A stretch of DNA of 5,657 bases. It comes from a virus. Its lineage: Duplodnaviria; Heunggongvirae; Uroviricota; Caudoviricetes. Under the pieces are notes generated by a model. The model made no database searches, was not told the origin of the DNA, and worked only from the letters and a program-made list of their open reading frames with translations. The stretch is from IMG/VR virus record IMGVR_UViG_2651869696_000005, positions 1 to 5,657 of that record, one strand, 5' to 3'. The position numbers and the translations under genes were made by a program. Below, in pieces: positions 2,942 to 5,657 of the stretch. Within the stretch, counting starts at the first letter, position 1; each line of letters opens with the position of its first letter.

Positions 2942-3685
2942 ATGACAGAGACAGAATCAGCGATTCTGGCGCACGCCCGGCGATGTGCGCCAGCGGAGTC
3001 GTGCGGCTTCGTGGTGAGAACGCCGGAGGGGGAAAGCTATTTTCCCTGCGTGAATATTTCCGGTGAGCCGGAGGATTATTTCCGGATGGCTCCGGAGGAC
3101 TGGCTGCAGGCAGAAATGCAGGGTGAGATTGTGGCGCTGGTCCACAGCCACCCCAGTGGTCTGCCCTGGCTGAGTGAGGCTGACCGGCGGCTGCAGGTGC
3201 AGAGTGATTTGCCGTGGTGGCTGGTCTGCCGGGGGGCGATTCACAAGTTCCGCTGTGTGCCGCATCTCACCGGGCGGCGCTTTGAGCACGGGGTGACGGA
3301 CTGTTACACGCTGTTCCGGGACGCTTACCATCTGGCGGGGACTGAACTGCCGGATTTTCACCGGGAGGATGACTGGTGGCGTCACGGTCAGAATCTCTAT
3401 CTTGACAATATGGAGGCGACGGGTTTTTACCGTGTCGCACTGACAGAGGCGCAGCCGGGCGATGTGCTGCTGTGCTGTTTTGGTTCATCGGTGCCGAATC
3501 ACGCCGCAATTTACTGCGGCGACGGCGAGCTGCTGCACCATATTCCTGAACAACTGAGCAAACGAGAGAGGTACACCGACAAATGGCAGCGACGCACACA
3601 CTCCCTCTGGCGTCACCGGGCATGGCACGCATCTGCCTTTACGGGGATTTACAACGATTTGGCCGCCGCATCGACCTTCGTGTAA
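2942..3685 (+). CDS. K: Tail tip assembly protein K (lambda gpK-like): N-terminal JAB/MPN-type metallopeptidase motif plus C-terminal NlpC/P60-type Cys/His domain. Longest ORF 247 aa; the classical lambda annotation corresponds to the internal ATG at 3086 (199 aa)
   Basis: ORF 2942-3685 begins 5 nt after the L stop. The in-frame internal ATG at 3086 has a GGAGGA (3070-3075) 10 nt upstream and corresponds to the classical 199-aa gpK start (MAPEDWLQ...). A JAMM-like H-S-H-x7-S-x2-D motif is encoded at 3143-3184. An NlpC/P60-like catalytic Cys sits in DCYTLF (Cys codon 3302-3304) and a His in NHAAIY (3500-3502). The 3' end overlaps gene I by 103 nt, as in lambda. Confidence 0.85.
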   Translation: MTETESAILAHARRCAPAESCGFVVRTPEGESYFPCVNISGEPEDYFRMAPEDWLQAEMQGEIVALVHSHPSGLPWLSEADRRLQVQSDLPWWLVCRGAIHKFRCVPHLTGRRFEHGVTDCYTLFRDAYHLAGTELPDFHREDDWWRHGQNLYLDNMEATGFYRVALTEAQPGDVLLCCFGSSVPNHAAIYCGDGELLHHIPEQLSKRERYTDKWQRRTHSLWRHRAWHASAFTGIYNDLAAASTFV

Positions 3686-4161
3686 AAACGGGGGCCGAAG
3701 CCATCCGCGCACTGGCCACACAGATCCCGGCGTTTCGTCAGAAACTGAACGACGGCTGGTATCAGGTACGCATTGCCGGGCGTGATGCAGGCGAAACCGA
3801 ATTATCAGCCCGTCTTAATGAGCCGCTGGCAAATGGTGCAGTGATCCACATCGTGCCGCGTCTGGCGGGAGCAAAAAGTGGCGGTGTGTTTCAGGCAGTG
3901 CTGGGTGCGGCGCTGATTGCTACGGCAATCTGGATGCCGGGAATCAGTATCGCTTTCAGTGACATTCTCTTTTCAATGGGGGCAGCGATGACGCTTGGCG
4001 GTGTTGCACAGATGCTGGCACCGAAACCCAAAACCCCAACAACGACCAGACAACGGATAACGGCAAACAGAACACCTATTTCTCATCACTGGATAACATG
4101 GTTGCCCAGGGCAATATTCTGCCTGTTCTGTACGGTGAAATGCGCGTGGGGTCACGCGTAA
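3583..4161 (+). CDS. I: Tail assembly protein I (lambda gpI-like), frame-disrupted: the N-terminal ubiquitin-like domain and hydrophobic segment are intact in this frame, but the last ~40 codons are out-of-frame read-through
   Basis: The ATG at 3583 lies inside the 3' end of K in another frame. The translation MAATHTLPLASPGMARICLYGDLQRFGRRIDLRVKTGAEAIRALATQIPAFRQKL... matches lambda gpI as I recall it, including the GG (3880-3885) that ends the ubiquitin-like domain. After ...GGVAQMLAPKPKTP (about 4038) this frame stops resembling gpI and runs into a stop at 4159-4161. Confidence 0.75.
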   Translation: MAATHTLPLASPGMARICLYGDLQRFGRRIDLRVKTGAEAIRALATQIPAFRQKLNDGWYQVRIAGRDAGETELSARLNEPLANGAVIHIVPRLAGAKSGGVFQAVLGAALIATAIWMPGISIAFSDILFSMGAAMTLGGVAQMLAPKPKTPTTTRQRITANRTPISHHWITWLPRAIFCLFCTVKCAWGHA

Positions 4162-4226
4162 TTTCGCAGGAAATCAGCACGGCAGACGAAGGGGATGGTG
4201 GTCAAATCGTGGTGATTGGTCGCTGA
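3963..4226 (+). pseudogene. I: Displaced C-terminal coding segment of gene I, in a different frame (frame 3) from the I start
   Basis: Frame 3 is open from 3963 to the TGA at 4224-4226. From 4047 it encodes QTTDNGKQNTYFSSLDNMVAQGNILPVLYGEMRVGSRVISQEISTADEGDGGQIVVIGR, which matches the C-terminus of lambda gpI as I recall it. The join between the N-terminal frame and this one needs a net 1-nt length change within about 4039-4046. Confidence 0.6.
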
Positions 4227-4244: not shown

Positions 4245-4272
4245 AAACCGCCTCCGGGCGGTTTTGTCGTTT
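4245..4272 (+). terminator. Hairpin plus T-tract in the I-J intergenic gap (terminator-like; may act as a partial terminator or RNA-stability/processing element)
   Basis: A perfect 8-bp inverted repeat, AAACCGCC (4245-4252) and GGCGGTTT (4257-4264), flanks a 4-nt loop TCCG. It is followed by TGTCGTTT, so the region 4261-4272 is T-rich. It lies between the I stop (4226) and the J SD (4275-4278). Confidence 0.3.
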
Positions 4273-4286: not shown

Positions 4287-5657
4287 ATGGGTAAAGGCAG
4301 CAGTAAGGGGCATACCCCGCGCGAAGCGAAGGACAACCTCAAATCCACGCAGCTGCTGAGTGTGATCGATGCCATCAGCGAAGGGCCGATAGAAGGTCCG
4401 GTGGATGGATTAAAAAGCGTGCTGCTGAACAGTACGCCGGTGCTGGACAGTGAAGAGAATACCAACATCTCCGGCGTCACGGTGGTGTTCCGGGCAGGTG
4501 AGCAGGAGCAGACACCGCCGGAGGGATTTGAATCCTCCGGCTCCGAGACGGTGCTGGGTACGGAAGTGAAATACGACACGCCGATCACCCGCACCATCAC
4601 GTCGGCAAACATCGACCGTCTGCGCCTGACCTTCGGTGTGCAGGCACTGGTGGAAACCACCTCAAAGGGGGACAGGAATCCGTCGGAAGTCCGCCTGCTG
4701 GTTCAGATACAGCGTAACGGTGGCTGGGTGACGGAAAAAGACATCACCATTAAGGGTAAAACCACCTCGCAGTATCTGGCCTCGGTGGTGGTGGATAACC
4801 TGCCGCCGCGCCCGTTTAATATCCGGATGCGCAGGATGACGCCGGACAGCACCACAGACCAGCTGCAGAACAAAACGCTCTGGTCGTCATACACCGAAAT
4901 CATCGATGTGAAACAGTGCTACCCGAACACGGCACTGGTCGGCGTGCAGGTGGACTCGGAGCAGTTCGGCAGCCAGCAGGTGAGCCGTAATTATCATCTG
5001 CGCGGGCGTATTCTGCAGGTGCCGTCGAACTATAACCCGCAGACGCGGCAATACAGCGGTATCTGGGACGGAACGTTTAAGCCAGCATACAGCAACAACA
5101 TGGCCTGGTGTCTGTGGGATATGCTGACCCATCCGCGCTACGGCATGGGGAAACGTCTTGGTGCGGCGGATGTGGACAAATGGGCGCTGTATGTCATCGG
5201 CCAGCATTGCGATCAGTCGGTGCCGGACGGTTTTGGCGGCACGGAGCCGCGCATCACCTGTAATGCGTACCTGACCACACAGCGTAAGGCGTGGGATGTG
5301 CTCAGTGATTTCTGCTCTGCGATGCGCTGTATGCCGGTATGGAACGGGCAGACGCTGACGTTCGTGCAGGACCGGCCATCGGATAAGGTGTGGACCTATA
5401 ACCGCAGTAATGTGGTGATGCCGGATGATGGCGCGCCGTTCCGCTACAGCTTCAGCGCCCTGAAAGACCGCCATAATGCCGTTGAGGTGAACTGGACTGA
5501 CCCGGATAACGGCTGGGAGACGGCGACAGAGCTTGTTGAAGATACGCAGGCCATTCTCCGTTACGGTCGTAACGTCACGAAGATGGATGCCTTTGGCTGT
5601 ACCAGCCGGGGGCAGGCGCACCGCGCCGGGCTGTGGCTGATTAAAACAGAACTGCTG
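4287..5657 (+). CDS. J: Tail tip attachment protein / central tail fibre J (lambda gpJ-like), N-terminal 457 codons; 3'-truncated by window edge
   Basis: ATG at 4287-4289 with GGAG at 4275-4278 (8-nt spacer). The frame is open with no stop to the last base of the window (1371 nt = 457 codons). The translation MGKGSSKGHTPREAKDNLKSTQLLSVIDAISEGPIEGPVDGLKSVLLNSTPVLD... matches the gpJ N-terminus as I recall it. It is not in the supplied ORF track because it has no stop in the window. Confidence 0.92.
   Translation, partial: MGKGSSKGHTPREAKDNLKSTQLLSVIDAISEGPIEGPVDGLKSVLLNSTPVLDSEENTNISGVTVVFRAGEQEQTPPEGFESSGSETVLGTEVKYDTPITRTITSANIDRLRLTFGVQALVETTSKGDRNPSEVRLLVQIQRNGGWVTEKDITIKGKTTSQYLASVVVDNLPPRPFNIRMRRMTPDSTTDQLQNKTLWSSYTEIIDVKQCYPNTALVGVQVDSEQFGSQQVSRNYHLRGRILQVPSNYNPQTRQYSGIWDGTFKPAYSNNMAWCLWDMLTHPRYGMGKRLGAADVDKWALYVIGQHCDQSVPDGFGGTEPRITCNAYLTTQRKAWDVLSDFCSAMRCMPVWNGQTLTFVQDRPSDKVWTYNRSNVVMPDDGAPFRYSFSALKDRHNAVEVNWTDPDNGWETATELVEDTQAILRYGRNVTKMDAFGCTSRGQAHRAGLWLIKTELL

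What the first reader, a model, noticed from the sequence alone, without database searches (positions are those of the whole stretch)
2942..3885. Overlapping K-I pair encodes a two-peptidase protein next to a ubiquitin-like, GG-terminated domain
K combines a JAMM/JAB metalloprotease motif (HSHPSGLPWLSEAD) with an NlpC/P60-type papain-like Cys/His domain (Cys in DCYTLF at 3302-3304, His in NHAAIY at 3500-3502). The co-translated, overlapping gene I starts with a ~95-aa domain ending in ...PRLAGAKSGG (GG at 3880-3885), followed by a hydrophobic Gly/Ala-rich segment. Comparative genomics has previously predicted gpI to carry a ubiquitin-like beta-grasp domain and gpK a JAB plus NlpC peptidase, suggesting ubiquitin-style processing or conjugation during tail tip assembly. 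To my knowledge this has been little tested biochemically.
Basis: partly seen in the sequence, partly recalled or inferred. Interest (0 to 1): 0.5.

Follow-up and report, generated by a model that had tools for sequence, protein, structure and literature searches.

The report
Lambda-type tail genes K and I
This is the ordinary tail-tip assembly gene pair K and I of a lambda-like prophage, in which a two-protease helper (K) sits next to a tail protein (I) that carries a removable ubiquitin-like cap. The arrangement was predicted in 2006 and is now being confirmed experimentally, and in this copy gene I is broken by a frameshift.

Summary

**K (2942-3685).** It scores above the curated cut-offs for Prok-JAB and NlpC/P60. 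It has a complete JAMM motif (E19, H68-S-H70, S78, D81) and a Cys121/His187/His199 triad.

**Conservation.** In all 10 diverse phage loci scanned with Pfam, the gene next upstream of I on the same strand has both peptidase domains. All catalytic residues are invariant in those 10 plus the window and a Stx2a phage (12 sequences).

**Prior work.** Iyer, Burroughs and Aravind predicted exactly this in 2006. [quoted passage not shown] A 2026 F-pyocin preprint shows the homologous N-terminal region is removed on maturation. The finding is therefore already known.

- No E1/E2 gene is present, so cleavage is favoured over conjugation.
- The G100-G101 pair is not conserved as a pair. G96 plus a small residue at 97 is the conserved motif, and it aligns with the MoaD/SAMP1 C-terminal Gly-Gly.
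- The 103-nt overlap is specific to lambda-like phages.
- Gene I here carries a frameshift near 4039-4050, which puts the structural plug domain out of frame.

The parts
2942..3685 (+). Gene K (tail tip assembly protein K), 247 aa plus stop. It starts 6 nt after the stop of L.
   Evidence: ORF list and translation. 96% identical to E. coli 'C40 family peptidase / phage tail protein' clusters. Annotated as tail tip assembly protein K in related phages.
2951..3235 (+). JAB/MPN+ (JAMM) metalloprotease domain of K, residues 4-98. Catalytic Glu19 is at 2996-2998, and H68-S-H70...S78..D81 is at 3143-3184.
   Evidence: Pfam Prok-JAB E=9.4e-14. Sequence match to the PDB JAB protein 2kks. In the AF2 model of a close homologue this part has pLDDT about 69-93, and its best Foldseek matches are P. 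furiosus JAMM1, Rpn11 and CSN5. E, HSH, S and D are invariant in 12 of 12 diverse K proteins.
3272..3613 (+). NlpC/P60 papain-like domain of K, residues 111-224. Cys121 is at 3302-3304, His187 at 3500-3502, and His199-His200 at 3536-3541.
   Evidence: Pfam NLPC_P60 E=9e-13. D-C, H187 and H-H are invariant in 12 of 12 diverse K proteins.
3583..3685 (+). K/I overlap of 103 nt (64 nt if I starts at the second ATG, 3622). I is in the -1 frame relative to K.
   Evidence: The same 103-nt overlap occurs in a Stx2a phage and a 58-nt overlap in mEp044. Eight other phages show only 4-20 nt of overlap, a 3-nt gap, or separated genes.
3583..4161 (+). Gene I as an open frame in this window (192 aa). The first 147 or so residues are genuine. 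The last 40 or so (from about 4039-4050) are out-of-frame nonsense ending at a premature stop.
3622..3873 (+). Ubiquitin-like beta-grasp domain of I (residues 14-97), of the MoaD/ThiS/SAMP type. The conserved motif is P92 (3856-3858) and G96-A97 (3868-3873).
3880..3885 (+). G100-G101, the 'GG' of the finding.
   Evidence: G101 is Gly in 68 of 79 diverse homologues and G100 in only 37 of 79.
3886..4020 (+). Hydrophobic Gly/Ala-rich linker of I (residues 102-146), with near-invariant G108.
   Evidence: A helix is predicted at 103-116. The equivalent region of gpI and PyoF9 is described as predicted transmembrane helices.
4039..4050 (+). Frameshift in gene I. It is equivalent to 2 extra bases relative to a 97%-identical E. 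coli prophage, or 1 missing base relative to a lambda-like reading.
   Evidence: DNA alignment with L001 and L002. Three-frame translation.
4047..4226 (+). The conserved C-terminal domain of I (QTTDNGKQNTYFSSLDNMVAQGN...GGQIVVIGR*), encoded out of frame with the upstream part of I. In lambda this part forms the trimeric plug inside the tail tip.
   Evidence: Frame 2 translation. Match to PDB gpI chains 8iyk and 9e7m through the intact relative P0018. Cryo-EM descriptions of gpI 134/135-223.

Best explanation
The window is the H-M-L-K-I-J tail-tip module of a lambda-like prophage.

Gene I encodes a precursor of the internal tail-tip plug. It has an N-terminal MoaD/ThiS-like ubiquitin-fold domain, then a hydrophobic linker, then in intact copies a C-terminal structural domain that forms a trimer inside the tip and holds the end of the tape measure protein.

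Gene K encodes a non-structural assembly enzyme with a JAMM/JAB zinc isopeptidase domain and an NlpC/P60 cysteine peptidase domain.

The most likely mechanism is as follows. The ubiquitin-like domain keeps I in a pre-assembly state. Once I has docked with J and L in the nascent tip, the JAB domain of K recognises the beta-grasp. It then cuts the chain just after the beta-grasp, at the conserved Gly96-Ala97...Gly101 stretch. This releases the cap and lets assembly proceed to tape-measure and tube attachment. K then leaves and is absent from virions.

This is Ubl-precursor processing of the deubiquitinase type, not conjugation. The role of the NlpC/P60 domain is not established.

Shown here: the domains, the fold, the intact catalytic residues, and the conserved gene pairing. 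Taken from the literature: that cleavage occurs, that it depends on K, and that only the C-terminal part of I is seen in particles. Inferred: which domain of K cuts, and at which residue.

In this copy a frameshift separates the plug domain from the rest of I. Unless that is a sequencing error, the pair is a decaying prophage remnant.
For: Gene order and Pfam families for M, L, K and I. J is open to the end of the window.

K has a complete JAMM motif and a Cys-His-His triad, invariant across 12 phages of Escherichia, Shigella, Salmonella, Ralstonia, Burkholderia, Pseudomonas, Stenotrophomonas and Moraxella.

The I N-terminal model is a MoaD/SAMP-type beta-grasp. The closest solved relative of the K JAB domain is P. 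furiosus JAMM1, solved in complex with the MoaD-like Ubl SAMP2 (5lda).

I homologues occur in 1022 phage records. In all 10 sampled diverse loci scanned with Pfam, the gene next upstream on the same strand has JAB plus NlpC/P60.

Literature:
- The original prediction (PMC1779556).
- gpK is absent from lambda virions, and only gpI 134/135-223 is resolved there, as a trimeric plug (PMC10721106; PMC12617516).
- A meeting report states that gpK cleaves the Ubl domain from gpI only after gpI joins the tip complex (PMC12908700).
- The N-terminal region of F-pyocin PA0640 is present in stalled tips and absent in mature particles, and deleting the gpK homologue PA0639 gives tip-less tubes.
Against: The K-dependent cleavage is known to me only from a meeting summary, not from a full paper with data.

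The cleavage site is unknown, and two candidate glycines exist (G96/A97 and G101).

The AF2 model of a natural K-I fusion was too poor to show the Ubl tail in either active site (pLDDT 58, pTM 0.43).

The I-domain model has only modest confidence (mean pLDDT 61.7).

Nothing assigns the cut to JAB rather than to NlpC/P60. [quoted passage not shown]

In this window I is frameshifted, so function here is doubtful.
Confidence: 0.8

Rival explanations
1. The NlpC/P60 cysteine peptidase domain of K, not the JAB domain, removes the ubiquitin-like domain of I, or the two domains make two different cuts. On this view JAB serves mainly as the Ubl-binding module. Papain-fold enzymes are the commonest deubiquitinases in eukaryotes.
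For: Both active sites are equally conserved in 12 of 12 diverse K proteins. Iyer et al. raised this possibility and noted prophage variants whose K has only the NlpC/P60 domain. In virions, ordered gpI starts only at residue 134/135, about 35 residues after the end of the beta-grasp, so a second cut is conceivable.
Against: JAB domains are the partners genomically linked to MoaD/ThiS-type Ubls throughout prokaryotes. The closest solved relative of this JAB domain is a Ubl-cleaving enzyme bound to its Ubl. The meeting report calls the active part of gpK a 'deubiquitinating domain'. The NlpC-only variants were suspected by Iyer et al. to be degenerate. Many 199-aa 'NlpC-only' K entries are simply gene calls that start at Met49.
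Confidence: 0.12
2. This is a true ubiquitin-style conjugation. After release, the exposed C-terminal glycine of the I beta-grasp is attached to another tail or host protein, and K acts as the maturase and/or deconjugase.
For: There is a conserved Gly at the C-terminal end of a MoaD-like fold. Bacterial Ubl conjugation systems that target phage tail-tip proteins do exist (bioRxiv 10.1101/2023.09.04.556158).
Against: No E1-like adenylating enzyme and no E2 is encoded in the window. None is annotated in the 11 related tail modules examined. The Ubl is synthesised as the N-terminal part of a structural precursor. No adduct is reported in the lambda virion studies.
Confidence: 0.03
3. K is chiefly a cell-wall hydrolase. 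NlpC/P60 enzymes typically cut peptidoglycan stem peptides, which would help the tail cross the envelope, and the neighbourhood with I would be incidental.
For: NlpC/P60 family membership. RefSeq names K 'C40 family peptidase'.
Against: gpK was not detected in lambda virions by mass spectrometry or cryo-EM. Its F-pyocin homologue was likewise not detected in particles, so it cannot act at infection. Deleting the homologue blocks tail-tip assembly itself. The fusion with a JAB domain, upstream of a Ubl gene, is conserved in all sampled loci.
Confidence: 0.04

Closest known systems
Phage lambda gpK / gpI (TAPK / TAPI of Iyer, Burroughs & Aravind 2006; Pfam PF14464 + PF00877 and PF06805)
   Same: The gene order H-M-L-K-I-J is the same. 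The 103-nt K/I overlap also recurs in a lambda-like Stx2a phage. K has the same two peptidase domains. I has the same Ubl, hydrophobic linker and C-terminal domain plan. An intact close relative of the window's I (P0018) aligns with lambda gpI chain 8iyk_I at E=3e-97. The DNA is about 90% identical to lambdoid phages.
   Different: Gene I in the window is frameshifted before the C-terminal plug domain. The linker is about 10 residues shorter than in lambda.
Archaeal JAMM1 / SAMP and bacterial JAMM / MoaD-fusion processing (for example P. furiosus JAMM1-SAMP2, PDB 5lda; HvJAMM1)
   Same: A minimal JAMM domain is paired with a MoaD-fold Ubl that ends in a conserved glycine, and the enzyme cuts the bond after the Ubl. 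These are the best structural matches for both partners.
   Different: There the Ubl is a free modifier that an E1 conjugates to lysines, or a sulfur carrier. Here the Ubl is the disposable N-terminal part of a virion-protein precursor, no E1 is present, and the JAMM domain is fused to a second peptidase.
F-type pyocin PA0639 / PA0640 (PyoF8 / PyoF9)
   Same: It is a homologous gene pair in a lambda-like tail cluster. Only the C-terminal part of the I homologue is seen in particles. The N-terminal region is present in stalled tips and removed in mature particles. The K homologue is required for tip assembly and absent from particles.
   Different: It is a tailocin, not a phage. The I domains are roughly 35-45% identical. 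The protease responsible was not identified in that preprint.
Bacterial Bil / type II CBASS Ubl-E1-E2-JAB defence systems
   Different: Those systems need E1 and E2 enzymes and conjugate the Ubl to targets. They are host defence systems, not phage assembly factors. No E1 or E2 is present here.

Membership tests
JAMM/MPN+ metalloprotease (Pfam Prok-JAB PF14464) | Profile score above the curated cut-off | tested here: met
   51.7 bits against a cut-off of 25, E=9.4e-14, K residues 4-98.
JAMM/MPN+ metalloprotease (Pfam Prok-JAB PF14464) | Catalytic motif E...H-x-H-x(7)-S-x(2)-D | tested here: met
   E19, H68-S-H70, then P-S-G-L-P-W-L (7 residues), S78, E-A, D81. Invariant in 12 of 12 diverse K proteins.
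JAMM/MPN+ metalloprotease (Pfam Prok-JAB PF14464) | MPN fold | tested here: met
   The JAB part of the AF2 model of the close homologue P0152 has pLDDT about 69-93. The best Foldseek hits are PfJAMM1, Rpn11 and CSN5.
JAMM/MPN+ metalloprotease (Pfam Prok-JAB PF14464) | Zinc-dependent cleavage after the Ubl C-terminus | not testable with these tools
   Known only from a meeting summary for lambda gpK.
NlpC/P60 (C40) papain-like peptidase (PF00877) | Profile score above the cut-off and a Cys-His-His/polar triad | tested here: met
   48.6 bits against a cut-off of 23. C121, H187 and H199 are present and invariant in 12 of 12. The fold of this part of the model is weak (pLDDT 56-66) and gave no PDB hit in the top 50.
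Tail assembly protein I (Pfam Lambda_tail_I PF06805; TAPI) | Profile score above the cut-off | tested here: met
   86.1 bits against a cut-off of 23.8, residues 14-97.
Tail assembly protein I (Pfam Lambda_tail_I PF06805; TAPI) | Ubiquitin-like beta-grasp fold related to ThiS/MoaD | tested here: met
Tail assembly protein I (Pfam Lambda_tail_I PF06805; TAPI) | Conserved glycine at the C-terminal end of the beta-grasp | tested here: met
   G96 is Gly in 76 of 79 diverse homologues. Position 97 is Ala, Ser or Gly in 78 of 79. G101 is Gly in 68 of 79, but G100 in only 37 of 79.
Tail assembly protein I (Pfam Lambda_tail_I PF06805; TAPI) | Gly-rich hydrophobic linker followed in frame by the TAPI-C structural domain | tested here: not met
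   The linker is present, but the TAPI-C domain is in another frame (4047-4226) because of a frameshift near 4039-4050. Most relatives are intact (128 of 177 database entries).
Ubiquitin-like conjugation system (Ubl + E1 + E2) | An E1-like adenylating enzyme (ThiF/MoeB family) and an E2 encoded with the Ubl | tested here: not met
   The window encodes only H, M, L, K, I and J. No such gene is annotated in 11 related loci.
Lambda-type siphophage tail-tip module | Gene order tape measure, M, L, K, I, J | tested here: met

The most novel reading that the evidence does not exclude
The K-I pair may be a two-step proteolytic checkpoint. In this reading the JAB domain cuts at the strictly conserved Gly96-Ala97 motif, which corresponds to the MoaD/SAMP Gly-Gly, and not at the G100-G101 the eye is drawn to. 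The equally conserved NlpC/P60 domain then makes a second, separate cut. [quoted passage not shown]
Probability: 0.12. Interest if true: 0.55.

Novelty: already known. Interest (0 to 1): 0.2.

Why it matters
The pair is a clean prokaryotic example of a ubiquitin-fold domain and a JAMM 'deubiquitinase' working together with no conjugation machinery. It therefore bears on the origin of ubiquitin signalling and on how phage tails enforce ordered assembly. That significance was recognised in 2006 and is now being worked out experimentally in lambda and in F-pyocins. This window adds another, partly decayed, copy and no new biology. The points still open and useful are the exact scissile bond, where the conservation data here favour the G96-A97 region as at least the recognition motif, and the substrate of the NlpC/P60 domain.

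Tried and rejected
1. **K-I docking by structure prediction.** The tool does not do multimers, so I used a natural K-I fusion from the database (P0152, 428 aa). The first mixed alignment (A3) aligned the K NlpC domain onto the Ubl of I and was discarded. A5 was acceptable. The resulting model had pLDDT 58 and pTM 0.43, so domain packing cannot be interpreted.

2. **Deeper alignment for structure prediction.** A profile search with 48 diverse I domains again returned mainly enterobacterial sequences, so the model of I rests on a shallow alignment (identity 53% or higher).

3. **The search for related loci with the diverse I alignment** failed because no stretch was conserved enough. I replaced it with tblastn against phage records.

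4. **Exact 44-mer across the frameshift in genome contigs** found no match, so the source genome and any sharer of this exact lesion were not identified.

5. **Profile search of PDB sequences with the I-domain alignment** found only TAPI homologues and no MoaD or ThiS.

6. **Programmed -1 frameshift from K into I.** I considered this as an explanation for the K-I fusion proteins in databases. It is rejected because I saw no X-XXY-YYZ slippery heptamer in the 103-nt overlap on reading the sequence, and the fusion junctions differ from one entry to the next, as expected of mutations or sequencing errors.

7. **Programmed recoding at the I frameshift.** This is rejected as unsupported. 128 of 177 related entries are intact, and the disrupted ones break at many different places.

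8. **Lambda virion mass-spectrometry supplement.** It lists only one gpI peptide (9.87% coverage) without saying which, so it does not show whether the N-terminus is absent.

9. **Literature searches for a full paper on gpK-gpI cleavage** found none in the library.

Full report
**What is in the window.** The 5657-base window is the distal part of a lambda-type tail gene cluster, all on the + strand.
- The 3' part of the tape measure gene H runs in from the left edge and ends at 1912.
- M is at 1909-2238 (Pfam Phage_min_tail, E=1.8e-39).
- L is at 2238-2936 (Phage_tail_L, E=5e-100).
- K is at 2942-3685.
- I starts at 3583.
- The first 457 codons of J start at 4287 and are open to the end of the window.

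The K-I segment is 90-92% identical to many lambdoid coliphages. It is up to 97.1% identical to prophages found in 4405 of 5426 complete E. coli genomes. Both sets of records annotate the genes as tail tip assembly proteins K and I, or as 'C40 family peptidase' and 'tail assembly protein'.

**Checking the observation.** Every coordinate in the finding is correct.
- HSHPSGLPWLSEAD is at 3143-3184.
- Cys121 is at 3302-3304.
- His187 is at 3500-3502.
- G100-G101 of I are at 3880-3885.
- The K/I overlap is 103 nt.

The domain calls are far beyond chance. K scores 51.7 bits on Prok-JAB (cut-off 25) and 48.6 bits on NLPC_P60 (cut-off 23). I scores 86.1 bits on Lambda_tail_I (cut-off 23.8).

The JAMM signature is complete: E19, H68-x-H70, seven residues, S78, two residues, D81. 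The NlpC/P60 triad is C121, H187 and H199.

**Is the N-terminal domain of I a beta-grasp?** I modelled residues 1-117 with an alignment of 33 relatives.
- Confidence is modest: mean pLDDT is 61.7, and the core (residues 14-95) is about 66-73.
- The order of secondary structure elements is strand, strand, helix, helix, strand, helix, strand.

The specific kinship with the ThiS/MoaD branch reported by Iyer et al. is reproduced.

**Is the pairing conserved?**
- A full HMMER scan of 1.84 billion representatives found 823 homologues of the I domain at E of 0.001 or better.
- tblastn found the domain in 1022 phage records from many genera.
- I fetched 11 diverse loci: Ralstonia, Burkholderia, HK97-like, Pseudomonas, three T1-like, Stenotrophomonas, Moraxella, Stx2a and mEp044.
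- All 10 upstream K-like proteins that I scanned have both Prok-JAB and NLPC_P60.
- In an alignment of these with the window and the Stx2a phage (12 sequences), E19, H68-S-H70, S78, D81, D120-C121, H187 and H199-H200 are invariant.

Both active sites are therefore under selection across the family.

The long overlap is not a family feature. It is 103 nt only in the window and the Stx2a phage, and 58 nt in mEp044. In six of the other phages the overlap is 4-20 nt, and in Ralstonia phage Dina the genes are 3 nt apart. In HK106 and Moraxella Mcat11 the two genes are separated by other genes.

Most distant homologues begin at the position of Met14 of the window's I. The first 13 residues are therefore a lambda-group extension, and the second ATG (3622) is a possible alternative start.

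**Which glycine ends the domain?** I examined 79 diverse homologues.

| Position | Count out of 79 |
|---|---|
| P92 | 78 |
| G96 | 76 |
| Position 97 is Ala | 66 (otherwise Ser in 7 and Gly in 5) |
| G100 | 37 |
| G101 | 68 |
| G108 | 78 |

hhalign of the family profile against SAMP1 and MoaD puts ...IHIVPRLAG96 opposite ...LALFPPVSG86(G87) and ...VAFFPPVTG80(G81).

The structural counterpart of the classical Ubl Gly-Gly is therefore more likely G96-A97 than the G100-G101 pair named in the finding. The real scissile bond is unknown.

**What is known already.**
- Iyer, Burroughs and Aravind (2006, PMC1779556) described exactly this: a ThiS/MoaD-like Ubl at the N-terminus of TAPI, with a conserved C-terminal glycine and a Gly-rich linker to a second domain. 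TAPK has JAB plus NlpC/P60 domains. They predicted that the JAB domain releases the Ubl by cutting at that glycine.
- Cryo-EM of lambda (PMC10721106, PMC12617516) resolves only gpI residues 134/135-223. These form a trimeric plug that holds the C-terminal helices of gpH. gpK was not found in virions.
- A report of an October 2025 meeting (PMC12908700) summarises work from A. Davidson's group. [quoted passage not shown] It also shows that deleting the gpK homologue PA0639 gives tip-less tubes.
- I found no full paper on the gpK-gpI reaction in the library.

**Mechanism.** The best-supported reading is precursor processing.
- I is made with a ubiquitin-fold cap.
- K, most likely through its JAMM domain, removes the cap at the conserved glycine stretch once I sits in the nascent J-L-I complex.
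- K then departs.

The closest solved relative of the JAB domain is P. furiosus JAMM1, crystallised with the MoaD-like Ubl SAMP2, which fits this reading. Conjugation is unlikely because no E1 or E2 is encoded in the window or in the related modules.

What the NlpC/P60 domain does is open. It could make the cut itself or make a second cut. A cell-wall role is unlikely, because K is not in particles.

My attempt to see the Ubl tail docked in an active site gave a model too poor to interpret. It used a natural K-I fusion protein from the database (P0152; pLDDT 58, pTM 0.43).

**A defect in this copy.**
- The I frame runs normally to about residue 152 (…QMLAPKPKTP). It then reads TTTRQRITANRTPISHHWITW… to a stop at 4159-4161.
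- The conserved C-terminal sequence QTTDNGKQNTYFSSLDNMVAQGN…GGQIVVIGR lies in another frame, at 4047-4226.
- Against a 97%-identical E. coli prophage, the window has two extra bases near 4048-4051.
- The out-of-frame part is precisely the domain that forms the plug in lambda. As sequenced, I cannot supply it.
- Similar lesions are common in prophage remnants. Of 177 related database entries, 128 are intact, 4 read in the same wrong frame from about the same point (including 'tail component of prophage CP-933K'), and the rest break elsewhere or are partial.
- This looks like decay or a sequencing error, not recoding.

**Verdict.** It is textbook-level comparative genomics from 2006, now with experimental backing, so novelty is nil and interest is low. 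The useful additions are four:
- Conjugation can be set aside.
- The 'GG' is probably not the conserved terminal motif.
- The long overlap is lineage-specific.
- This copy of I is frameshifted.

Noticed in passing
window 4039-4050 (lesion); 4047-4226 (displaced reading frame): Gene I is frameshifted just before its conserved C-terminal (plug) domain. Related prophage entries, including CP-933K's 'tail component', read in the same wrong frame from about the same point, while most relatives are intact.
   Followed up: partly
window 2942-3085 (K residues 1-48): Many database K entries are 199 aa, start at the equivalent of Met49 and carry only the NlpC/P60 Pfam hit (for example P0180, P0184, P0185). 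That start would delete catalytic Glu19 and half of the JAB domain. The 247-aa reading, which starts 6 nt after the stop of L, is supported by conservation of E-x-CG in 12 diverse phages.
   Followed up: partly
window 3583-3685: The C-terminal 25 or so residues of K (…WRHRAWHASAFTGIYNDLAAASTFV) exist only in lambda-like K proteins and are encoded by the same bases as the highly conserved first strands of I (…RICLYGDLQRFGRR). Their conservation may therefore be a by-product of selection on I rather than evidence of a function in K.
   Followed up: no
protein database entries P0138, P0152, P0189, P0201, P0225, P0236, P0238: K-I fusion proteins occur in public gene calls. The junctions lie at different points of the overlap, which is consistent with independent frameshift mutations or sequencing errors. 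Iyer et al. also noted TAPI fused to JAB in one E. coli prophage.
   Followed up: partly
window about 4246-4272, between I and J: A GC-rich hairpin followed by a T-rich run (AAACCGCCTCCGGGCGGTTTTGTCGTTT) lies in the 60-nt gap before J. The simple terminator scan did not flag it, but related phages annotate a terminator in this neighbourhood (phage Ayreon; HK106 upstream of its I gene).
   Followed up: no
representative proteins P0371 (2973 aa), P0386 (1661 aa), P0364 (714 aa), P0352 (567 aa), P0243 (2783 aa, 24 matched stretches), P0355 (1346 aa, 10 stretches): Some homologues carry the I-type Ubl domain at the N-terminus of very long proteins, probably I-J fusions as noted in 2006. Two long proteins match the domain in many repeated stretches. 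I did not examine either.
   Followed up: no
L012 3400-5309 (Stx2a_WGPS2): In this Stx2a prophage an IS66-family transposase sits immediately downstream of I, where J is expected, which is another sign of frequent decay of these tail modules.
   Followed up: no
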